A stretch of DNA of 64,000 nt from positions 63,552,001 to 63,616,000 of the forward strand of contig NC_086097.1 of assembly GCF_963921235.1 (NCBI RefSeq), given 5' to 3'. A program made the position numbers and the translations under genes. This document shows positions 30,086 through 61,200 of this stretch, in pieces. The notes below the pieces were generated by a model, which was not told the DNA's origin, made no database searches, and saw only the letters and a list, made by a program, of their open reading frames with translations. This stretch comes from Mobula hypostoma. Lineage: Eukaryota. The number at the start of each line of letters is the position of its first letter. The stretch's first letter is position 1.

Positions 30086-30256
30086 TGACATATGCGGCAT
30101 AATTTCTAGCTGTGTAAAGGACTAGGCTGATCAGACCTTAACTATTCAGGTGTCTAGGAGATGTGGTAATAAGCATACAAATGCAACAAAGTAACTTAAG
30201 CCTAATTTACTATCATAAAGTGGAAAGCACTAATAAACCACAAAAAATACTACACA

Positions 30257-30489
30257 AACAACAGGAATTCTGCAGATGCTGGAAATTCAAGCAACATACA
30301 TCAAAGTTGCTGGTGAACGCAGCAGGCCAAGCAGCATCTATAGGAAGAGGTGCAGTCGACGTTTCAGGCCGAGACCCTTCGTCCTGTTAGTACTGACGAA
30401 GGGTCTCGGCCTGAAACGTCGACTGCACCTCTTCCTATAGATGCTGCTTGGCCTGCTGCGTTCACCAGCAACTTTGATGCATGTTGCTT
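30257..30489. mobile_element. 233-bp Penelope-derived hairpin insertion (inverted pseudo-LTR ends) with 14-bp TSD
   Basis: Arms 30289-30383 and 30395-30489 are reverse complements (one mismatch in 95 bp) around an 11-nt loop. TSD AAAAATACTACACA at 30243-30256 and 30490-30503. Same sequence as the ends of the PLE at 31341-32467. Confidence 0.9.
30388..30425 (+). ncRNA. Minimal type-I hammerhead ribozyme (stem I closing pair mutated)
   Basis: tagta-CTGACGA-AGG-gtctcgg-CCT-GAAAC-GTC-gactg. The catalytic core is intact, but the C preceding CTGACGA in other copies is A here. Confidence 0.7.
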
Positions 30490-31434
30490 AAAAATACTAC
30501 ACAGTAAGTCATAAAGATTTTGGGGCTCACGATTCTTAGTCACCACATGATTGCTGCTGTTGTCAGGGGATCTCTGAATTTTGATCCACTTGTGAAACTA
30601 CTCCAGCACTTGAATGAAGCCCAATGAACCAGGGAAGGCAGCCCAATTAATATAAATTTCACAAGTGCAGAGAGACCCAGAAACAGACAAACTCTTTGTT
30701 CTTTTATCTCAACACAACTTGTCCTTTCTTTTCCCCAAACACATCCTGTGCCCATTAACACAGTCCTCATAAATCAATTAGACACTTTAATGGTCGGTCC
30801 TCATTATCTCATAGCACACAATATTCCTTTGGACATAAAAGAACATTAATATTACATATAAGTGAATCCAAGAAAGTCTTAACAGACATTCACACTTTAC
30901 TGGTGCTTGAGACTAAGAAGGAATCCAGCTACAAACATTAACAGACCTGCAGTGTTTCCCTTATACAGACACTGTGCAAATGCTACTCACTAAGAGACCT
31001 ATAGACTTCACATGCTAAGTGTTCCAAAAGAGCTAAATTGTCATTTGACCTTCCAGACGTTCATCCAATGTTTTGCAAAATGTATTATAGCAGAAAGTGG
31101 GACAGGACATAGTGGAGGGCCAAGGCTATGGCATCATCAGTGCACCCGTTTTGAGACAAATAAACTGAAGGTTTATGTAGGTGTACTGTAGGTGAAGTAA
31201 ATACTTGTATAGGAATATGAAAGAATAGCCTTCTTAGTCATGAAACCTATTTGGCTGCCTCACTGCAAATCATCTGTGTACTGATGATTTCTATAACATT
31301 ATTCATAATTTTGAGATGAAACAACCTAATGGACAATGAACAACAGGAATTCTGCAGATGCTGGAAATTCAAGCAACACACATCAAAGTTGCTGGTGAAC
31401 GCAGCAGGCCAAGCAGCATCTATAGGAAGAGGCG

Positions 31435-31472
31435 CAGTCGACGTTTCAGGCCGAGACCCTTCATCAGGACTA
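31435..31472 (-). ncRNA. Minimal type-I hammerhead ribozyme (PLE pLTR)
   Basis: Reverse complement reads TAGTC-CTGATGA-AGG-gtctcgg-CCT-GAAAC-GTC-GACTG: canonical CUGAUGA/GAAA core, 3-bp stem II, palindromic ACGT stem III, GUC cleavage triplet, stem I TAGTC/GACTG. Confidence 0.85.
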
Positions 31473-31810
31473 ACTGAAGGAAGAGTGAGTAAGGGATTTG
31501 AAAGCTGGAGGGGGAGGGGGAGATGCAAAATGATAGGAGAAGACAGGAGGGGGAGGGATAGAGCCGAGAGCTGGACAGGTGATAGGCAAAAGGGGATACG
31601 AGAGGATCATGGGACAGGAGGTCCGGGAAGAAAGACGGGGGGGGGGGTGACCCAGAGGATGGGCAAGAGGTATATTCAGAGGGACAGAGGGAGAAAAAGG
31701 AGAGTGAGAGAAAGAATGTGTGCATAAAAATGAGTAACAGATGGGGTACGAGGGGGAGGTGGGGCCTAGCGGAAGTTAGAGAAGTCAATGTTAGAGAAAG
31801 TTAGAGAAGC

Positions 31811-32071
31811 CTTTTATATATTGGTGAGACCCGACGCAGACTGGGAGATCGCTTTGCTGAACATCTACGCTCTGTCCGCCAGAGAAAGCAGGATCTCCCA
31901 GTGGCCACACATTTTAATTCCACATCCCATTCCCATTCTGACATGTCTATCCACGGCCTCCTCTACTGTAAAGATGAAGCCACACTCAGGTTGGAGGAAC
32001 AACACCTTATATTCCGTCTGGGTAGCCTCCAACCTGATGGCATGAACATTGACTTCTCTAACTTCCCCTAG
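31811..32071 (+). pseudogene. Penelope GIY-YIG endonuclease C-terminal fragment (5'-truncated, frame open)
   Basis: Own translation: LLYIGETRRRLGDRFAEHLRSVRQRKQDLPVATHFNSTSHSHSDMSIHGLLYCKDEATLRLEEQHLIFRLGSLQPDGMNIDFSNFP*. YIGET, R..EH, HF and E...I..L....P.G.N motifs of PLE GIY-YIG. No start codon, so absent from the ORF track. Confidence 0.92.
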
Positions 32072-32365
32072 GCCCCACCTCCCCCTCGTACCCCATCTGT
32101 TACTCATTTTTATACACACATTCTTTCTCTCACTCTCCTTTTTCTCCCTCTGTCCCTCTGAATATACCTCTTGCCCATCCTCTGGGTCACCCCCCCCCCT
32201 TGTCTTTCTTCCCGGACCTCCTGTCCCATGATCCTCTCGTATCCCCTTTTGCCTATCACCTGTCCAGCTCTCGGCTCTATCCCTCCCCCTCCTGTCTTCT
32301 CCTATCATTTTGCATCTCCCCCTCCCCCTCCAGCTTTCAAATCCCTTACTCACTCTTCCTTCAGT

Positions 32366-32403
32366 TAGTCCTGACGAAGGGTCTCGGCCTGAAACGTCGA
32401 CTG
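32366..32403 (+). ncRNA. Minimal type-I hammerhead ribozyme (PLE pLTR); predicted cleavage after C32398
   Basis: TAGTC-CTGACGA-AGG-gtctcgg-CCT-GAAAC-GTC^GACTG; all core nucleotides intact. Confidence 0.85.
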
Positions 32404-33044
32404 CGCCTCTTCCTATAGATGCTGCTTGGCCTGCTGCGTTCACCAGCAACTTTGATGTGTGTTGCGTTAATGGACAATGAAAACTGTATTTCTTTATACA
32501 TGTGGCACACGTAAAAAATGCCATTTGTGGACATATGTTTGCAGTTTCGTTAATTTATTTTCATAAGCTAGTTCATTGTGAAATGAGATATAAGAAATAT
32601 ACATGGGAAATGTGTGAATTTCCTTAAGTATCTAATGCTGAATTCAGAACATGTATGATAAAGTTCAGTCTTTAGTTGCAACTTTATGCAAAATGATACA
32701 TAAAGCTTGCATCCAGTGTATTGTTGTTGAATATTGTGCATTTCTGCCAGTATTATTAGTTCTGATCTGCAAGTAAAGCACAATCAAAAAGTGAGTAAAA
32801 TAAAACATAACAATCAGAAATTTAGATTAAGTGATGAGATGGTACATTGAAATTGAATATCCATGCTAAACCATTGTGTGACTGATTTTCTATTGCTACA
32901 ATGATTGAAAATGGGGCTGATCAAGTGTTGAGCAGAGTGTGTTCATATGATTATCCTGCAATTCCATTCTATAACCTTGTAGCTGACATGCTGGCCTATC
33001 GTGTTTTGACAAATTTGCCAGCGCCATTTCTTCATCTCGGTTTG

Positions 33045-37892: not shown

Positions 37893-38440
37893 AAATTAAA
37901 CTGTAACATGGAAAGGGATATATTGTCAACAAGAAATTCTCCAGATGCTGGAAACCCCAAGCAATACAAAAAAATGCAAGGGGAACTCAGCAGGTCAGGC
38001 TGCATCTGTGGAAATGAATAAGCAGTCAATGTATCGGGCCGCGACCCCTTCCTCTAGACTGGAAAGAAAGGGGGAAGAGTGGAAGGTGATAGGTGAAGTC
38101 AGGTGGGTGGGAAAGGTAAAGGACTGGAGAAGGAATCTGATAGGAGAGGAGAGTGGACCATAGGAGAAAGGGAAAGAGGAGGAGACACAGGGGGAAGGGA
38201 AAAAGGAGGGCACCCAGGGAGAAAGGGAAAGGCAGATGAGAAGAGGTAAGTGGCTAGAGGGAGGAATAGATGAAGAAGGGAGGGGAAGGATTTTTTTTAC
38301 TGGAAGGAGAAATTGATATTCATGCCATCAGGTTTGAGGCTACCCGGATGGAATGAATATAAGATATTGCTGAGGGTGGCCTCACCATGGCACAAGAGTA
38401 GGCCACGGATTGACATGTCAAAATAGGAATGGGAATGGGA

Positions 38441-39583: not shown

Positions 39584-41592
39584 CAAGTCAAGTCAAGTCA
39601 CTTTTTATTGTCATTTCGACCATAACTGCTGGTACAGTACACAGTAAAAACGAGACATTTTTCAGGACCATGGTGCTACATGAAACAATACAAAAACTAC
39701 ACTGAACTACGTAAAACAACACAAAACTACAGTAGACTACAGACCTACCCAGGACTGCATAAAGTGCACAAAATAGTACAGGCATTACAATAACTAATAC
39801 GCAAGACAATATGCACGGTAGAGGGCAGTAGGTTGGTGTCAGTCCAGGCTCTGGGTATTGAGGAGTCTGATGGCTTGGGGGAAGAAACTGTTACATAGTC
39901 TGGTCGTGAGAGCCCGAACTCTTCAGTGCCTTTTGCCAGATGGCAGAAGGGAGAAGGGATTGTATGAGAGGTGCATGGGGTCCTTCATAAAGCTGTTTGC
40001 TTTACGGATGCAGCGTGTGGTGTAAATGTCTGTAATGGCTGGAAGAGAGACCCCGATGATCTTCTCAGCTGACTTCACTATCCGCTGCAGGGCTTGTGAT
40101 CCGAGATGGTGCAATTTCTGAACCAGGCAGTGATGCAGCTGCTCAGGATGCTCTCAATACAACCTCTGTAGAATGTGGTGAGGATGAGGGGGTGGGAGAT
40201 GGACTTCTCTCAGCCTTCGCAGAAAGCAGAGACGCTGCTTGGTTTTCTTTGCGATGGAGCTGGTGTTGAGGGACCAGGTGAGATTCTCCGCCAGGGGAAC
40301 ACCAAGAAATTTGGTGCTCTTAACGATCTCTACAGAGGAGTTGTCAATGTTCAGTGGAGAGTGGCCATTTCATGTCCTCCTGAAGTCAACAACCATCTCT
40401 TTTGTTTTGTTCACATTCAGAGACAGGTTGTTGGCTCTGCACCAGTCTGTTAGCCGCTGCACCTCCTCTCTGTATGCTGACTCATCATTCTTGCTGATGA
40501 GACCCTCCATGGTCGTGTCATCGGTGAACTTGATGATGTGGTTCGAGCTGTGTGTTGCAGCACAGTCGTGGGTCAGCAGAGTGAACAGCAGTGGACTGAG
40601 CACACAGCCCTGGGGGGCCCTGTGCTCAGTGTGATGGTGTTGGAGATGCTGCTTCCAATCCGAACTGACTGAGGTCTCCCAGTCAGGAAGTCTAGGATCC
40701 AGTTGCAGAGGGAGGTGTTCAGGCCCAGTAGGCTCAGCTTTCCAATCAGTTTCTGAGGAATGATTGTGTTAAATGCTGAACTAAAGTTCATGAACAGCAT
40801 TCGAACGTATGTGTCTTTTTTGTCCAGGTGGGTTAAGGCCAGGTGGAGGGTAATGGCAATGGCGTCGTCTGTTGAGCGGTTGGGACGGTACACAAACTGC
40901 AGGGGGCCCAGTGAAGGAGGCAGCAGGGTCTTGATGTGCCTCATGATGAGCCTCTCGAAACACTTCATGATGATGGATGTGAGTGCGACAGGACGGTAGT
41001 TGTTGAGGCAGGACACTGAAGACATCTTCGGCACAGGGACGATGGTGGCGGCCTTCAAACATGCAGGAACGACAACGCTGCTCAGGGAGATGTTGAAGAT
41101 GTCAGTGAGAATCTCTGCTAGCTGGTCTGCACATCCTCTAAGCACTCTGCCGGGAATATTGTCTGGTCCAGCAGCCTTCCATGGGTTGACCCTGCACAGG
41201 GTTCTCCTCACATCGGCCACGGTAAGACACAGCACCTGGTCATTTGGAGAAGGGGTGGTCTTCCTCACCGCCACGTCATTTTCCGCCTTAAAACGAGCGT
41301 AGAAGTTATTCAACGCATCTGGGAGGGAGGCATCACCAGCACGGGAAGGTGGTTTTGTCTTGTAGTTCGTGATGTCCTGAATGCCCTTCCACATGCGCCA
41401 CGTGTCACCGCTGTCCTGGAAGTGGCTGTGGATGCACTGGGCGTCTGCACGCTTTGCCTCTCTGATGGCCCGGGACAGCTTGCCCCTCGCTGTTGTTAGG
41501 GCTGCCTTGTCGCCTGCTCTGAAGGCGGAGTCACGGGTCCTCAGCAGTTCACGCACCTCCGCGGTCATCCATGGCTTCTGGTTAGCGCGTGT
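39584..41592 (-). mobile_element. Rex1/Babar LINE, 5'-truncated, relatively young
   Basis: (CAAGT)n tail at 39584. 331-aa minus ORF 40573-41568 ([10 protein letters not shown]...[19 protein letters not shown]...FSSAFNTI...NWILDFL), then frameshifted KFTDDTT (40370-40603) and the C-terminus (39923-40114). Confidence 0.95.
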
Positions 41593-44329
41593 CGTGGAGG
41601 TTCAAGTGGTGGTTGGTAAGGACAAGAGGAACTCTATCACTGTTAAGGCAGCGGGAAGATGGGGTGTCCGAGAAATGGAGGAGATATGGGTGAGAATAAT
41701 ATCAATGCTGGAGGAAGGGAAACCCTGTTCATCGAAGGAGGAGGACATCTTGATGTTCTGGAAAGGAAAGCTGTTTCCTGGGAACAGATGCGGCAGAGGC
41801 GAAGGAACTGAGAAAACTTTGAAGGAGGTGTATATTGTGACCAGGAACTGCAGACAATTAAGTAGAGTCAGCCAGGTTTACAGCAAGGCAAAAGGACAAA
41901 GAACCAATCAGAAATGCTTAGATAAGAAAGCTATGAGGGGGCATCAAGATAAGCAGCCTTAGGAAAAGTCGGTTCAATGCAGGTCCTGCAAATAAATCAA
42001 ATGGTGCTAACTCAGTGTAAATAGCAATAAAGCAAACCTGAGGAAATAGAGCAGCCACTCAGGTTTCATCTGGACAAAAGAATTAGATTATATCAGCACA
42101 CAGAGGCTTTCGATGGTCTCAGGTCTGCTTCTGATTAGCAATTCAAATGTATCAACGCCAGCTCAGCCTTTATATCTTAAAATCAAAGAAAGATGGGGGA
42201 TAAAAATTAACAGCGCACACTCGCAATGTATTAGAAAATGGAGAACGGTGCATCAGGCACAGGATTTGATTATTTTCCCTCCCAATAATTTTTATTAAAA
42301 TGGATTTGTTGCAATAGTTAAATTTCTCATTCTGTTTACAGACCTGATGTCATCATGTTTTTGTTTCTAACTCACTTTCACTTTCATTCATCTTAACATA
42401 TTTTGTTTCGGCTGTCCGTCTGCTTCAACCTGCCACTTTGAATGTCACTTTCCTTCTTTCTTTCTGGGTGAGAGGAGGCAACTGGTATTGTGGCATGGCA
42501 GGAGAAGAAGCCATCAACAGCTCAAGGTCACATTTGTGGTGGAGCTGCAATGTTATCTGACCCTCAGTGTGGTTCTCCAGTCATCCTCTTCCCTAGACAC
42601 TTTCCCATAATCTTACCTCACTTGCCTATGTCCCTACCCATAACTTTGCTTCTTGTTTTACCCTTGCAGCCACAGACCTATCTTGGCATCATCATAATCT
42701 TAACTCCTTCCACTTCAAATAATAACCCACCTAACTTTTATATCTTGGCAATCTTTTCTTGTTCACCTCAATCCAGTTCTCTGTTCCAATTCGCTGGCAC
42801 CACCATCCAGTCCTGAATGGGCAGAGAGAGACCAACACACTGCTTACTATCACTTAGCAACTGTCATTCTTATTTCCCTTCTCTCTTTCTTTTTTTCTCT
42901 TCTGACTGAATGTTTCTCTATTTCAAAATCCACTTTTAATATTAAGTTAAAATGAGGAGAAGCACTATCTGTCTCTGACTTTTACCATTCAATCCCTTTG
43001 TCTCCGAGCTGGAACTTACAAATAGCAATTACCTTTCCTAAATATCATTCAAAACTCAGGTGGAAAACTAATTGATTTCAAAGTTCAACCATCATTTTAA
43101 AAGCACGATATGCAAAAGTTATAAAACACAAAACGAAAAGTAGAACAAGAGTAATAAGGAATTAGTCTCATATTCTCCTGTCATATACATATACAACACA
43201 GACATGCAGGTGCACACATACACACAAAATCTTGCTTTGAAAGAATTATGGAGAGAATATTTTACATGCATGTAAAATCTTGTGCAATCTATAAACATAT
43301 TCTTTTCCATCCACCTCTCTGACATTTTGCATAATATTCTGAGTTACTTTACAATTTATATGCATCCTTTCTCTGCTGAGAGACGCTTAGAAAGCAGCTA
43401 CATTATTCATAATTGCTGTCCCTGGAAATAGGGAGATTTGCTATTTTTGGAAAATTGATGATAGTGCATTAATCACAGATTAGAAAGATCAATAAAACCA
43501 CACAAATAACCAGTGACATTTGCAGATTATGAATTCAGATCGCTTTTAGATGTTATTGCAGATTTCAAAAAGACATTGGCTTATGGAGGTCATAACATAG
43601 GTAATAATTGAGAAATTATATCACTTACCTGCATTCACTTATTCAGCTGAATGAGGTAGAATTTTGCTAGTCACTGACAGTGTTTGTACTTAAGCATTTA
43701 TACTTATGTGTTTACACAACAGTATTTGTAAGTTTCAGAGCCAAGTCCTTCAGATTCCCAAAGGGTTTGTTTTTTATTTGAATCCTAGCTATGAAGACTT
43801 CATATGATGCTATTAACAATAGAGAAAACATTCATGGAAAATGAAAGATTTCCATATCTGAAAATATACAGAAGGTAAGTGATATTAGGATGGAATTTAT
43901 ATTAAAAATGCTGTCTTCATATGGTGACTTTTTTCATTACAGCAAAGACAACATTTAACTGGAAACTGCTCCAGAACAACCGAAGAACTTTAAAGATGCT
44001 ACTGTACATAAATACATTTATTAATTTATTTCTATTAAATTCCCATCTTATTTGTCAGGAGGTGTGAACATAAAAATAGAAAAATGTTTCCATTAAATTA
44101 GTGGAGACAGAACTTGATGTCAGTAAGCTACTCTAAGAAATACAGAAACATTGTGCTTAAAAATAACAGCCTGGACGTTAACAAGGTCAATGGTATTTTA
44201 AATTAACATCCATAAAATAGTCTCAGTCAAAAGTAATTTTCAGGTATTTACTTCAGACTTCTCCATATTTCATGGATTTCTGTATTTCTTGTGACATAAA
44301 ATATTGATTTCATGGATTTATCATTACGG

Positions 44330-44725: not shown

Positions 44726-44826
44726 ACACAGGAGATACTGCAGATGCTGGAAAACTTGAACAAAATACTGGAGGAACTCAGCAAGTCAGTCAGCATCTAC
44801 GGAGTGGAACAAAATGTTTCAGGGCA
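44726..44826 (-). mobile_element. Old Penelope pLTR end fragment
   Basis: 'ctgcagatgctggaaa...actggaggaactcagcaagtcagtcagcatcta' is homologous to the PLE termini at 31341 and 37930. Confidence 0.65.
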
Positions 44827-54835: not shown

Positions 54836-57680
54836 ATAAGACCATAAGACAAAGGAGCAGAAGGCAGCCATTCGGCCCATCGAGTCTGCTCTGCCATTTT
54901 ATCATGAGCTGATCCATTCTCCCATTTAGCCCCACTGTCCCGCCTTCTCACCATAACCTTTGATGCCCTGGCTACTCAGATACCTATCAATCTCTGCCTT
55001 AAATACACCCAATGACTTGGCCTCCACTGCTGCCCGTGGCAACAAATTCCATAGATCCACCACCCTCTCACTAAAAAAATTTCTTCGCACTTCTGTTCTG
55101 AATGGGCGGCCTTCAATCCTTAAGTCATGCCTTCTCGTACTAGACTCCCCCGTCATGGGAAACAACTTTGCCACATCCACTCTGTCCATGCCTTTTAACA
55201 TTCGAAATGTTTCTATGAGGTCTCCCCTCATTCTTCTAAACTCCAAGGAATACAGTCCAAGTGCGGACAAACGTTCCTCATATGTTAACCCTCTCATTCT
55301 CGGAATCATTCAAGTGAATCTTCTCTGTACCCTCTCCAATGTCAGCACATCCTTTCATAAATAAGGAGACCAAAACTGCCCACAGTACACCAAGTGAGGT
55401 CTCACCAGTGCCTTATAGAGCCTCAATATCACATCCCTGCTCCTATACTCTATTCCTCTAGAAATGAATGCCAACATTGCATTCGCCTTCTTCACCACTG
55501 GCTCAACCTGGAGGTTAACCTTCAGGGTATCCTTAAGGTAAGAGGACTCCCAAGTCCCGTTGCATCTCAGAACTTTGGATTCTTTCCCCACTTAAGTAAT
55601 AGTCTGCCCATTTATTTCTTCTGCCAAAGTGCATAACCATACAATTTCCAACATTGTATTTCATTTGCCACTTCTTTGCCCATTCTTCCAATCTATCCAA
55701 GTCTCCCTGCAGAAGTCTGTCCTGACGAAGGGTCTCGGCCTGAAACGTCGACTGCACCTCTTCCTAGAGATGCTGCCTGGCCTGCTGCGTTCACCAGCAA
55801 CTTTTATGTGTGTTGCTCCTTGCAGATTCTCCATTTCCTCAGCACTACCGGCCCCTCCACCTATCTTTGTGTTGTCAGCAAACTTAACCACAAAGCCATC
55901 TATTCCATAATCCAAATCGTTGATGTACAATGTAAAAAGAAGCGGCCCCAACACGGACCCCTGTGGAATACCACTGGTAACCGGCAGCCAACCAGAATAA
56001 GATCCCTTTATTCCCACTCTCTGTTTCCTGCAATCAGCCAACGCTCTATCGATGTATGTAACTTTCTCGTAATTCCATGGGCTCTTATTTTGTTAAGTAG
56101 CCTCATGTGTGGCAACTTGTCAAAGGCCTTCTGAAAATCCAAATATACAACATCCACTGCATCTCCCTTGTCTAGCCTACTGGTAATTTCCTTAAAAAAT
56201 TGTAATAGGTTTGTCAGGCAGGAGTTTCCTTTGAGGAATTCATGCTGAGTTCTGCCTATCTTGTCATATGCCTCCAGGTACTCTGTAACCTCATCCTTGA
56301 CAATCGACTCCAACAACTTCCCAACAACCGATGTCAAGCTAACAGGTCTATAATTTCTTTTTTGCTTCCTTGCTCCCTTCTTAAATAGCGGAGTGACATT
56401 TGCAATCTTCCAGTCCTCCGGAACCATGCCAGGATCTATCGACTTTTGAAAGATCATCGCTAATGCCTCCGCAATCTCCACAGCTACTTCCTTCAGAACA
56501 CGAGGGTGCATTCCATCTGGTCTGGGAGATTTATCTACCTTTAGACTATTCAGCTTCCTGAGTACTTTCTCTGTCGTAATTGTGACTGCGCACACTTCTC
56601 TTCCCTGCCACCCTTGAGTGTCCGGTATACTGCTGATGTCTTCCTCAGTGAAGACTGATGCAAAATACTCATTCAGTTCTTCCGCTATCTCCTTATCTCC
56701 CATTACAATTTCTCCAGCATCATTTTCTATCGGTCCTATATCTACTCTCACCTGTCTTTTACTCTTTATATACTTGAAAAAGCTTTTAGTATCCCCTTTG
56801 ATATTATTTGCTAGCTTCCTTTCATAGTTAATCTTTTCCCTCTTAATGACCTTCTTAGTTTCCTTTTGTAAGCTTTTAAAAACTTCCCAATCCTCTGTCT
56901 TCCCACTAATTTTTCTTCCTTGTATGCCCTCTCCTTTGCTTTGACTTTGGCTTTGACCTCTCTTGTCAACCACAGTTGCATCCTTTTTCCATTCGAAAAT
57001 TTCTTCTTTTCTGGAATATACCTGTCTTGCACCTTCCTCACTTCTCACATAAACTCCAGCCACTGCTGCTCTGCCATCTTTCCCGCCAGTGTCCCTTTCC
57101 AGTCAACTTTGGCCAGTTCCTCTCTCATGCCACTGTAATTTCCTTTACTCCACTGAAATACTGACACATCAGATTTCGGCTTCTCTTTTTCAAATTTCAC
57201 AGTGAACTCAATCATGTTATGATCACTTTTCCTAAGGGTTCCTTCACCTCAATCTCTCTAATCACTTCCGGTTCATTACACAATACCCAATCCAGTACAG
57301 CCGATTTCCTAGTGGGCTCAACAACATGCTGTTCTAAAAAGCCAACTCTCAGGCATTCTACAAATTCTCTCTCTTGAGATCCAGTGCCGACCTGATTTTC
57401 CCAATCCACTCGCATGTTAAAATCCCCCACAATTATCATAACACTGCCCTTCTAACAAGCCTTTTCTATTTCCTGTTGTAATTTGTAGTCCACATCACTG
57501 CAGCTGTTTGGAGGTCTATAAATAACTGCCATCGTGTCCTTTTACCCCTGTGATTTCTTAGCTCAACCCATAAAGATTCTGCACCTTCCGATCCTATATC
57601 ACCTCTTTCTAATGATTTACTATCATTTCTTACTAATAAAGCCACAGCTCCCCTTTGCCTACCTTCCTATCCTTCTGATA
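54834..57680 (-). mobile_element. CR1 LINE (endonuclease + RT + 3' tail), mildly decayed
   Basis: Minus ORFs 57212-57439 (IIVGDFN, APE), 56008-57063, 55661-56041 (SGIPQGSVLGPLLFTLYINDLD...KFADNTK), 55355-55591 and 54926-55309; tail cataagaccataagac at 54834. Confidence 0.96.
55713..55815 (+). mobile_element. ~100-bp Penelope pLTR end with hammerhead core, inserted in the CR1 RT
   Basis: GTC-CTGACGA-AGG-gtctcgg-CCT-GAAAC-GTC-GAC at 55719-55752. Flanked by CTCC(C/T)TGCAGA direct repeats at ~55703-55713 and 55816-55826; removing it restores CR1 collinearity. Confidence 0.88.
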
Positions 57681-58225: not shown

Positions 58226-61200
58226 TTGAGCATTCAGTTGGATCCTTGTTCTTTTTTAGGATAAGCGAGATAGAAGCTTCATAAAAAGATTGAGGCAAAC
58301 TACCTGTAAGGGGTATCGACTTTTATGTTACTGCGGAGGCTAATTAAAATGGCGTCTTTGTTATGTTAATCTGAGGAATGCGGCTTTGTTGTGTTAAACG
58401 CTGAGAAAGTTTGCGCTAGCAGCTTGTTTTGGTTTAGAGTGTGATAAGAAATATGTTATTAACCAATTGGGATAGTTGTTACATTTTTGGTTTATTTGAA
58501 GATACTGTACGCGCGGGGTTTTGGGGCAGAAGGTAGGAGAGCGAGACAGAGGATGGACGAGGTGCTGTGATGTCCGCTAACAGGGTCAGACCCCAAGGAG
58601 GGCGTTCGGCGAGGAGACGGAGATGGACTCGTATGGAGCGTCTGGTTGACCACCGTTGTTGGTCCCAGGTGGCCGGTGGAGGCTGTCCGAGGGGTCGCGG
58701 GGTGAAGAAGAAGGTCCTTGAGCTCCAACTGTTTCGTGCACAAAGAAATTGAACTTTGATAAGTGTGGCGCCTTTTATTTTCCTTTTACATTTTATTCTC
58801 TATTAATTATATAGTTCCAGTAATATCTATAAACTGTAAATCATTTAATTGCATCTGGTGTATTGTCTGTTATTTGGGCGGGGTGGGGTACCTCACACAG
58901 CATCCACACAAATGAATTATCCAGTTTGGCGGGGCCAAGGGCTGTTTCCCTAGACGACAGCGAGCCGAGCGACCCTGAGGGTGGCCGGGGGGGCTACATA
59001 CCCAATTTGAAAGAATCCAAAAAAACTAAGTGTAACTGTAGTATAATTAATGAAGAAAAAGCCTTATGAAATTCTCCAGAAAATCCATCTGGACCTGGAG
59101 CCTTCTCCGAATGTAATGAACGTATAGCCTCGGCTATTTCCTCGTAAGAAATGGGTTGATCCATCTGTTTGCAATTATCTGCAGAAAGTGCAGAGATATT
59201 TAATTGATCTAAAAATTTGTTCATTACAGTATTATCTTTAGGGGCGTCAGAACTATGAAGTTTAGAATAGAATTCTCTAAAGGTATCATTCATTTCAGAG
59301 TCATCATTTGTCCTATCACTATTAGTTTCGCAAATTTCTTTAATTTGTCGTTTAACTACAGAAGTCTTTAACTGGTTGGCCAATACTTTTCCTGATTTAT
59401 CTCCGTGAATGTAAAATTGAGCTTTATCTTTAAGAAGTTGAGTTTCAATTGGATATGTTAACAGAAGATTATATTTAGTTTTAACTTCAATACATCTTTT
59501 ATGTAAAACAGGATCTGGAGCTAGAGTATATTTTTGATCTAATTGTTTTAATTGATTGGCTAATTCAATTCTTTCTTTATTAGCTTTATTCTTAACACTC
59601 GCAGTATAAGAAATAATTTGTCCTCTAATATAGGTCTTGAAAGTATCCCATACAATAAGATTAGAAGTCTCTTCCTTTTTATTCTCTTCAAGAAACAAAA
59701 TAATATGCTTCTCAAGAAATTTTAAAAGTTCCTTATCAGATAACAAAGTTGTATTAAAATGCCAAAATCTGTTGGTTTGAAGAAGACCAGGGAGTTATAA
59801 AGATAAAAATATAGGAGCATGGTCTGAAACATCAATCTCTTTATATTCACAGGAACAAACTGATGAAATCATTTGACTATCAATAAAAAAATAATCAATC
59901 CTGGAATATGTGTGATGAACATGGGAAAAAACGAATATTCCCTATCTAAGGGATATAAGAAATGCCAAACATCAACTATACTACACTTCAATAAAAAAGA
60001 TTGAATAAACAAAGCTGATTTATTAAGAGACGCTGGTTTAGAAGATGATCAGTCTAAGATTGGGCCTAGCCAACAGTTAAAATCTCCTCTCATCACCAAA
60101 CAATAAAGACGAAAAACGAAAAAAAGCGTTCAAAGAATCCTGGGTCATCTACATTTGGGGCATACACATTGGCAAATACTATTAACTTATTATCTAGTTT
60201 TCCTGAGACTATAACAAAACGTCCATTAATATCAGACACTACTTTATGTTGGACAAAGGAAAGTGTATTATCCATAAGAATTGAAACTCCTCTAGATTTG
60301 GCCTGAAGAGTGAAAACAAAGTCCATTCCAACGGTTGAAAAACCATAGATTATCACATTTGTGTATGTGAGTTTCTTGTAAAAAAATAATAGGGACCTTA
60401 GATTTCTTAATATAAGCAAAAATCTTATTGCATTTAACAGGGTGATTTAACCTTTTCATGTTTAAACTGAGTAAATTAATAGTCTGGTCCATTTTTAATA
60501 CTATTTAAAGGAAGGGTTAAAATATAAGTTAAAAACCAAGCCATAAACCTTGAGAAATGGTAACCAAACAATAAGTTGGCTAAAAATTCGAAAACAGTTT
60601 CTAGGGAAAAAACCATAACCCTGCCCACATCCCAAAGAAGGAAAACCAACCAATAGAAAGTCGGCATCTACTAACTACTGACAACCCCCCAAAAAAACCT
60701 GGTGATCGCTCCAATTAGTTTCAAGGTTATTTATATTCCAACCTAGACTAAACAAAACTCAAACAAGAGATTCAGCTCTCGTATATCAAAAATATAGCAT
60801 TAAAAAAATACGAAAGGAAATTAGTTACAGAGGTTTATCAAAAGTAAAAGATACAATTATTCATACAGATAGATATTGAACATTAATCTTATGTCTTCAT
60901 GGAAAAACAGACTAGGGAATTAGCTTTCAAATTTTAAAAAATCTTTGTGCTTCAACATTCAAACGAAGCCATTCCAAGGGTCCATCTTTAATGAGATTCT
61001 CAGTCAAACTGGGGAGCCAAGGGACAGGTTAAAACCCTTGTTAAAAAAAAATTCCAACAGAGCTTGTTTAAACTTAGCACACTCCTGCATAACCTCAAGC
61101 AAATAACCTTCGAGAATCTTAATATTCCACCCTATAACCAGACATGCTCCTTTGATGGGATTTGCGAATTAAAAATTCCTCATTTAATCTTGTGTCTTCA

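What the first reader, a model, noticed from the sequence alone, without database searches (positions are those of the whole stretch)
30257..30489. 233-bp ribozyme hairpin insertion: possible non-autonomous Penelope-derived MITE/retrozyme-like element
Seen: 95-bp arms with one mismatch, an 11-nt loop, a clean 14-bp TSD and no coding sequence. The fold-back point lies in the hammerhead itself, leaving a core-intact hammerhead on the plus strand and a truncated one (GGACGA in place of CTGACGA) on the minus strand. Known: PLEs give inverted 5'-truncated insertions, and retrozymes are small non-autonomous hammerhead retroelements. Inference: either a minimal one-off PLE inversion product or a member of a self-propagating small hairpin family. 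Transcribed, it would be a Dicer/ADAR substrate.
Basis: partly seen in the sequence, partly recalled or inferred. Interest (0 to 1): 0.7.

Follow-up and report, generated by a model that had tools for sequence, protein, structure and literature searches.

The report
Minimal fold-back Penelope retroelement insertion
This 233-base hairpin is a real but ordinary scrap of a very abundant Penelope-type jumping gene, likely left when two short copies of the element's end were joined head to head during one insertion, and its small ribozyme motif is damaged and predicted to be buried in the hairpin.

Summary
The hairpin is real: 95-bp arms with one mismatch, 11-nt loop, exact 14-bp target duplication. 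That one-sided 'tail', the head-to-head arms and the duplication are the published structure of inverted Penelope-like (PLE) insertions. A 1.1-kb neighbour 840 bp away has the same tail, the same ends and a GIY-YIG fragment. The family is hugely abundant, and the best-supported inversion joints in public contigs are scattered; this hairpin's joint is not among the rows shown, though uniqueness could not be tested. The plus-strand hammerhead keeps its core but has a broken helix I pair and is predicted to be sequestered. One useful detail: the fold axis sits in register with a natural imperfect palindrome beside helix I, so this joint could recur independently, and recurrence alone would not prove a family. 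It is neither a retrozyme (not tandem) nor a MITE. The scan has noted similar fold-back stubs before, in this and other genomes. Verdict: new member of a known kind, low interest.

The parts
30243..30256 (+). Left copy of 14-bp target site duplication (A/T-rich)
   Evidence: Exact repeat of 30490-30503
30257..30288 (-). 32-nt one-sided 'tail' of the PLE pLTR; its outer end is likely the distal reverse-transcription start
   Evidence: Identical to 31339-31370 of the neighbour; unpaired with the right arm; 30-40-bp tail described in PMC8557442, PMC3846280, PMC11167929
30289..30383 (-). Left arm: 3' end of the pLTR in reverse orientation, stopping inside the hammerhead core (lacks C3, U4 and the 5' strand of helix I)
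   Evidence: 30257-30383 is 97.6% identical to 31339-31465; minus-strand reading
30384..30394 (+). 11-nt loop, derived from the sense strand
   Evidence: 9 of 11 letters match the neighbour's sense sequence in register, 1 of 11 the antisense continuation
30388..30425 (+). Minimal type I hammerhead motif: core 30393-30399, bulged A, 4-bp helix II, GAAAC-GUC without helix III loop, predicted cut after 30420; helix I closing pair mismatched
   Evidence: min-HHR description in PMC4209133. Rfam gave no hammerhead hit
30395..30489 (+). Right arm: 3' end of the pLTR in forward orientation, ending where the tail would begin (likely proximal start)
   Evidence: Ends within 2 nt of the same point as the copies ending at 32467 and 55817
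30490..30503 (+). Right copy of 14-bp target site duplication
31339..32467 (.). Neighbouring longer insertion of the same family and architecture: tail-bearing reverse arm 31339-31792, 16-nt templated filler 31793-31808, forward arm 31809-32467; 14-bp duplication at 31327-31340 and 32468-32481
   Evidence: arms 98.8% alike over 421 nt; contigs of organisms B and D leave the reference exactly at 31340 (records 26 and 12)
31805..32071 (+). C-terminal GIY-YIG endonuclease fragment of the parent PLE (P0001), inside the neighbour
   Evidence: Pfam GIY-YIG E 0.0093, below the curated cut-off; 95% identical to a 422-aa ray protein; a 56% homolog carries RVT_1 and GIY-YIG hits
55719..55817 (+). Third family copy: single forward arm beginning at the helix I edge, inside a LINE-like stretch

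Best explanation
It is a very short head-to-head insertion of the 3' end of an abundant endonuclease-bearing Penelope-like retrotransposon, likely made in one event in which both nicks of a 14-bp staggered cut primed reverse transcription and the two short cDNAs were then joined. Inferred steps: the top-strand nick primed at the distal start (giving the arm with the 32-nt tail), the bottom-strand nick at the proximal start (giving the tail-less arm); both cDNAs ran through an uncleaved hammerhead, stopped 25-36 nt beyond its cut site, and annealed through the element's own imperfect palindrome beside helix I; fill-in gave the hairpin. The product is most likely a dead copy: no coding sequence, hammerhead damaged and predicted to be sequestered. 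Shown: anatomy, family membership, end positions, register of the joint. Inferred: order of events and the join.
For: Same tail, same right end and a 14-bp duplication in the 1.1-kb neighbour. All 3 forward arms in the window end within 2 nt of one point; both reverse arms of this family carry the tail. Parent endonuclease fragment in the neighbour. Literature: inverted 5'-truncated copy with one-sided tail and 8-10-bp duplication (PMC3846280; PMC8557442); a purified PLE protein nicks and extends both strands and starts at two sites that bound the tail, with uncleaved RNA as main template (PMC11167929); opposite-strand hammerhead pairs about 100-700 bp apart already noted (PMC4209133). Joint register: the left arm's last 10 nt match the sense sequence they replace at 7 of 10, the best of 392 windows of that geometry. 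Contigs: 8 of the 24 distinct joints shown are inversion-type, all with different coordinate pairs; this hairpin's joint is not among the 24.
Against: Only 15 of 376 and 12 of 261 joint rows were shown and some joints were not counted, so uniqueness of this junction is not established. The 10-nt/11-nt geometry was taken from this element, so the ranking is optimistic; with loops of 3-20 nt, 11 of 7047 windows reach 7 of 10. The same imperfect repeat would equally guide a later deletion. The loop carries 2 changes in 11 nt against 1 in 95 bp between the arms, which the model explains only as junction noise. One other joint at the helix I edge (31382-31470) is well supported in two species, so recurrent mini-structures do exist in this family. 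The empty site of this insertion was not seen.
Confidence: 0.62

Rival explanations
1. It inserted as a longer inverted element like the neighbour and later lost its centre by a deletion between two imperfect 10-nt direct repeats, one in each arm.
For: The two 10-nt stretches that match at 7 of 10 stand as direct repeats in the neighbour (31456-31465 and 32352-32361). Microhomology-mediated deletions in Penelope copies are reported (PMC3846280). Instability of long palindromes is recalled knowledge.
Against: The neighbour, of similar youth, has kept its centre, and its own joint shows a templated filler typical of end joining. A third copy with no inverted arm also begins at the helix I edge, which suggests cDNA stops there without any deletion.
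Confidence: 0.2
2. The inversion arose by self-priming (fold-back) of one nucleic-acid strand at the palindrome, as proposed for rotifer Penelopes on an antisense template.
For: PMC3846280 reads palindromes at inverted junctions as self-priming. The cDNA strand can form a weak hairpin on this axis (-3.4 kcal/mol, rank 47 of 392 windows).
Against: The loop comes from the tail-less arm, so a fold-back copy of that cDNA could not supply the tail on the other arm without a further template switch (inference). The hairpin is weak.
Confidence: 0.1
3. It belongs to a small self-propagating family of hairpin mini-elements that the PLE protein mobilises in trans.
For: pLTR sequences alone sufficed for mobilisation in trans in a rotifer (PMC3846280). 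The tail stays outside the duplex in the minus-strand RNA. A different joint at the helix I edge has summed depth 58-63 in two species against 5-9 on the quietest flank bins (depth is not a copy number).
Against: This joint is not among the 24 best-supported rows. Both ends sit at the family's two usual end positions and abut the duplication with no carried flank, as expected for de novo formation. The RNA would be a 95-bp duplex covering the proximal start. Only 1 of 3 family copies in the window has this form.
Confidence: 0.08

Closest known systems
Inverted insertion units of EN+ Penelope-like elements (Arkhipova et al. 2013, PMC3846280; Craig et al. 2021, PMC8557442; passages read)
   Same: Head-to-head inverted pLTR ends, 30-40-bp tail on one side, target duplication, 5' truncation, palindromic sequence at the inverted junction.
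   Different: Here nothing is left between the two pLTR ends (233 bp in all) and the duplication is 14 bp instead of 8-10 bp. The parent looks Neptune-like: the close homolog P0002 has a Cys-rich linker between RT and EN; no tree was built.
Minimal hammerheads (min-HHR) of metazoan PLEs (Cervera and De la Pena 2014, PMC4209133; results and discussion read)
   Same: Type I topology, bulged base before helix II, short helix I, no helix III loop; opposite-strand pairs a short distance apart were reported in Schistosoma.
   Different: Helix I closing pair is A-G in this copy; the first helix II pair is G-U, not G-C, in all three window copies; the second motif is cut inside its core.
PAc (anole Poseidon) in vitro mechanism (Frangieh et al. 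2024, PMC11167929; main text read)
   Same: Two start sites bounding the tail, both strands nicked and extended, AT-rich target, hammerhead cleavage not needed.
   Different: That work does not resolve how inverted copies are joined; the join proposed here is inference. Different clade and host.
Non-LTR retrozymes (Cervera and De la Pena 2020, PMC7229834, passages; Li et al. 2026, bioRxiv 10.64898/2026.07.22.740005, parts 1-2 of 5)
   Same: Small, non-coding, type I hammerhead, PLE pLTR-derived, longer target duplications.
   Different: Retrozymes are head-to-tail tandem units with two same-strand hammerheads that can fold freely; this is an inverted pair with one damaged, sequestered motif per strand.
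MITEs (definition as in PMC8969392, passage)
   Same: Short, non-coding, inverted repeats, target duplication.
   Different: MITEs derive from DNA transposons and are moved by a transposase; this derives from a retroelement and its ends are asymmetric (32-nt tail).

Membership tests
EN+ PLE inverted insertion unit | Sequence derives from the pLTR of a PLE with a GIY-YIG endonuclease | tested here: met
   93-98% identical to the neighbour's arms, which continue into a GIY-YIG fragment whose homologs include RT-GIY-YIG proteins
EN+ PLE inverted insertion unit | Inverted 5'-truncated copy joined head to head | tested here: met
EN+ PLE inverted insertion unit | 30-40-bp tail at one end only | tested here: met
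   32 nt, left end only, identical to the neighbour's
EN+ PLE inverted insertion unit | Target site duplication | tested here: met
   14 bp exact; empty site of this insertion not seen
EN+ PLE inverted insertion unit | Clade placement (Neptune versus Poseidon) by RT phylogeny | not tested
   Only the Cys-rich linker of homolog P0002 was seen
PLE minimal hammerhead | Conserved core CUGANGA...GAAA, bulged base before helix II, no helix III loop | tested here: met
   Plus strand; minus strand lacks C3 and U4
PLE minimal hammerhead | Helix I of 4-5 bp closed next to the core | tested here: not met
   Closing pair A-G, probability 0.00 against 0.92 in the neighbour's motif
PLE minimal hammerhead | Self-cleavage (as a dimer) | not testable with these tools
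   Predicted pair probabilities of helices I and II are 0.0 in the whole element
Non-LTR retrozyme | Head-to-tail tandem units with two or more complete same-strand hammerheads | tested here: not met
   Inverted, not tandem; no tandem array here
Non-LTR retrozyme | Expressed as linear and circular monomer RNA | not testable with these tools
   Only assembled contigs were on offer
Non-LTR retrozyme | Hammerhead free to fold in the transcript | tested here: not met
   Sequestered in the 95-bp duplex on both strands by prediction
MITE | Terminal inverted repeats derived from a DNA transposon | tested here: not met
   Arms derive from a PLE pLTR; the left arm starts 32 nt inside the element
MITE | Many near-identical copies of the same unit | tested here: inconclusive
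   No genome; joint absent from the 24 shown rows, but most rows were hidden

The most novel reading that the evidence does not exclude
The imperfect palindrome beside helix I of the hammerhead is a built-in stop-and-join site that repeatedly yields this hairpin, and the hairpin RNA, whose tail stays outside the duplex, is itself re-copied by the PLE protein: a self-propagating, fold-back, non-autonomous PLE family distinct from tandem retrozymes, and a genome-wide source of long double-stranded RNA.
Probability: 0.08. Interest if true: 0.55.

Novelty: new member of a known kind. Interest (0 to 1): 0.17.

Why it matters
As one locus it matters little. It is a compact example of how PLE inverted copies may form, a step that the literature read here leaves open: two start sites, two nicks, and a join in register with the element's own imperfect palindrome. 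If joints across the genome pile up on that axis, the two-cDNA annealing model becomes testable from sequence alone. If the exact loop recurred at many loci, it would be a new sort of non-autonomous PLE.

Tried and rejected
Whole-genome junction count: no genome held. Pattern scans found nothing: family motif in viral, metagenome and prokaryote contigs and a fold-back pattern in metagenome contigs; these collections are not expected to hold fish DNA, so the blanks say nothing. Rfam: no hammerhead model hit; mir-3926 (50.9 bits, gathering 82) only reflects a generic hairpin and is rejected. Expression: no RNA holder listed; the run guessed to be RNA has no contig on 30490-30645; neither is evidence. 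Empty site of this insertion: not covered by the stretch laid; record 9 of organism D has 32 unaligned letters before 30513, which cannot be read either way. Loose ends behind 31470-31472 (198, 184+78, 45+11 contigs) looked like a truncation hot spot, but their consensus resembles the sister family at 38050-38075 and similar numbers stand at 31435, so they were not used. Ribozyme cleavage as the cause of truncation: rejected, both arms run past the cut site and 0 of 48 shown breakpoints lie within 3 nt of it (0.48 expected, so weak). Assembly fold-back artefact: unlikely given the duplication, one-sided tail and arm mismatch; the junction was not checked in raw reads. Scan look-up by sequence and near the window gave nothing. 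Paper searches listed no paper on a self-propagating hairpin PLE family or on this ray family; subscription papers, figures and supplements were not seen.

Full report
Observation. The element at 30257-30489 is as described: arms 30289-30383 and 30395-30489 pair over 95 bp with one mismatch, the loop is 11 nt, and an identical 14-mer flanks it on both sides (chance at a fixed place 1.9e-8). It folds at -202.3 kcal/mol, z -28.7, with 0 of 200 shuffles as good.

Family. A window-wide comparison finds two more close copies and two distant ones. The nearest, 31339-32467, has the identical 32-nt left end, a reverse arm of 454 nt, a forward arm of 659 nt and its own exact 14-bp duplication. Its forward arm begins in a GIY-YIG fragment (Pfam E 0.0093, below the curated cut-off). 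That fragment is 95% identical to a Mobula protein and 89% to a Hypanus protein, and a 56% homolog carries both RT and GIY-YIG hits. The host is therefore likely a ray and the parent an endonuclease-bearing Penelope-like element; the Cys-rich linker in P0002 points to the Neptune type as defined in PMC8557442, but no tree was built. All 3 forward arms in the window end within 2 nt of one point. In public contigs the family is enormous: 92,354 contigs of organism A were laid on a 1,555-bp stretch, with summed depth near or above a million on the element against 6-9 on the quietest flank bins (not a copy number). Contigs of organisms B and D leave the reference exactly at the end of the neighbour's first duplication copy, which fits an empty site there.

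Known structure. PMC3846280 (passages) describes as typical an adjacent inverted pLTR, a 31-bp tail on one of the inverted pLTRs, 8-10-bp duplications and palindromes at head-to-head junctions. PMC8557442 (passages) says the same for other clades. PMC11167929 (main text) shows that a purified PLE protein nicks and extends both target strands, starts at two sites that bound the tail, and uses uncleaved RNA. PMC4209133 (results and discussion) already noted hammerhead pairs about 100-700 bp apart on opposite strands. The finding is the short end of this spectrum.

Hammerhead. The plus strand has the minimal type I layout, but the pair next to the core is A-G where the other two copies have C-G; its probability is 0.00 against 0.92 in the neighbour's isolated motif, and all helix I and II pairs fall to 0.0 in the whole element. 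The first helix II pair is G-U in all three copies. Minimal motifs need a same-strand partner and showed no activity as monomers. On either strand the antisense arm is transcribed first. The motif is most likely a passenger. Both arms extend past the predicted cut site, so cleavage does not explain where they stop.

Junction. The loop is sense-derived (9 of 11 in register, 1 of 11 for the antisense continuation), and the left arm's last 10 nt match the sense sequence they replace at 7 of 10 without a gap, the best of 392 windows of that geometry along the neighbour's arm. With loops of 3-20 nt, 11 of 7047 windows reach that score, 5 of them starting at 32343-32355, just upstream of helix I. 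The geometry was chosen from this element, so the ranking is optimistic, and the neighbour stands in for the parent. The simplest reading is that two cDNA ends annealed through this imperfect palindrome; a later deletion between the same repeats cannot be excluded. The neighbour's joint instead holds a 16-nt templated filler.

Family or one-off. The decisive count could not be run. In one search, 15 of 376 joint rows and 12 of 261 rows with inserted letters were shown, 24 distinct. Eight are inversion-type (7 from arm to spacer, 1 marked opposite strands), all with different coordinate pairs, although two share nearly the same sense start (31870, 31872). This hairpin's joint is not among them; each shown row reaches depth 29 or more in some run. 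The element's own flank joint, a presumably single-copy event, is also not shown, so single-copy joints fall below the display. This argues against a high-copy family but not a small one, and the tool did not count all joints. Against my reading: one joint, 31382-31470, stands in two species at depth 58 and 63 (3 contigs each), so a different mini-structure at the helix I edge is recurrent or old and amplified. Of 48 shown breakpoints, 5 fall in 31465-31477 (0.88 expected, P 0.002; 4 of 46, P 0.01, after dropping one row that may be a variant).

Comparison. It meets every tested feature of a PLE inverted insertion unit. It fails the retrozyme features (tandem, two same-strand motifs, free folding) and the MITE definition. 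As a long perfect duplex it would be a plausible ADAR or Dicer substrate if transcribed (general knowledge), but there is no evidence here that it is transcribed. Earlier scan notes record similar fold-back stubs in this and other genomes; these are unchecked and not counted as support.

Verdict. Real, ordinary, new member of a known kind. Interest 0.17. The self-propagating hairpin reading is not excluded (about 0.08).

Noticed in passing
window 31339-32467: Second inverted PLE insertion with about 420-bp arms, templated filler at the joint, GIY-YIG fragment and 14-bp duplication; site appears empty in organisms B and D.
   Followed up: yes
reference positions 31382 and 31470: An opposite-strand joint at the helix I edge with a very short other arm stands at depth 58-63 in two species; may be a small recurrent mini-element family distinct from this hairpin.
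   Followed up: partly
window 55719-55817: Single-arm family copy starting at the helix I edge, with a possible 11-bp duplication (one mismatch), inside a LINE-like stretch.
   Followed up: partly
window 37927-38434 and 44728-44790: Older, about 72% similar sister-family copies, tail-bearing reverse arms; the first reaches the endonuclease end.
   Followed up: no
window 4013-27300: About 23 kb of almost pure C/T low-complexity repeat (GC skew near -1) that gives very long stop-free frames; probably non-coding.
   Followed up: no
window 40573-41601, 56008-57102, 58994-59794: Long frames that look like decayed LINE reverse-transcriptase or ORF2 pieces (resemblance recalled, not searched).
   Followed up: no
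proteins P0004, P0006, P0009, P0018: Several annotated ray and shark host gene models (kinase-domain, mucin-2, ATP synthase subunit, receptor-transporting protein) contain this PLE endonuclease piece; likely mis-annotation or exonisation.
   Followed up: no
window 32415-32450: A second natural imperfect palindrome in the pLTR (5 of the 11 high-scoring windows); a candidate second fold-back axis.
   Followed up: no
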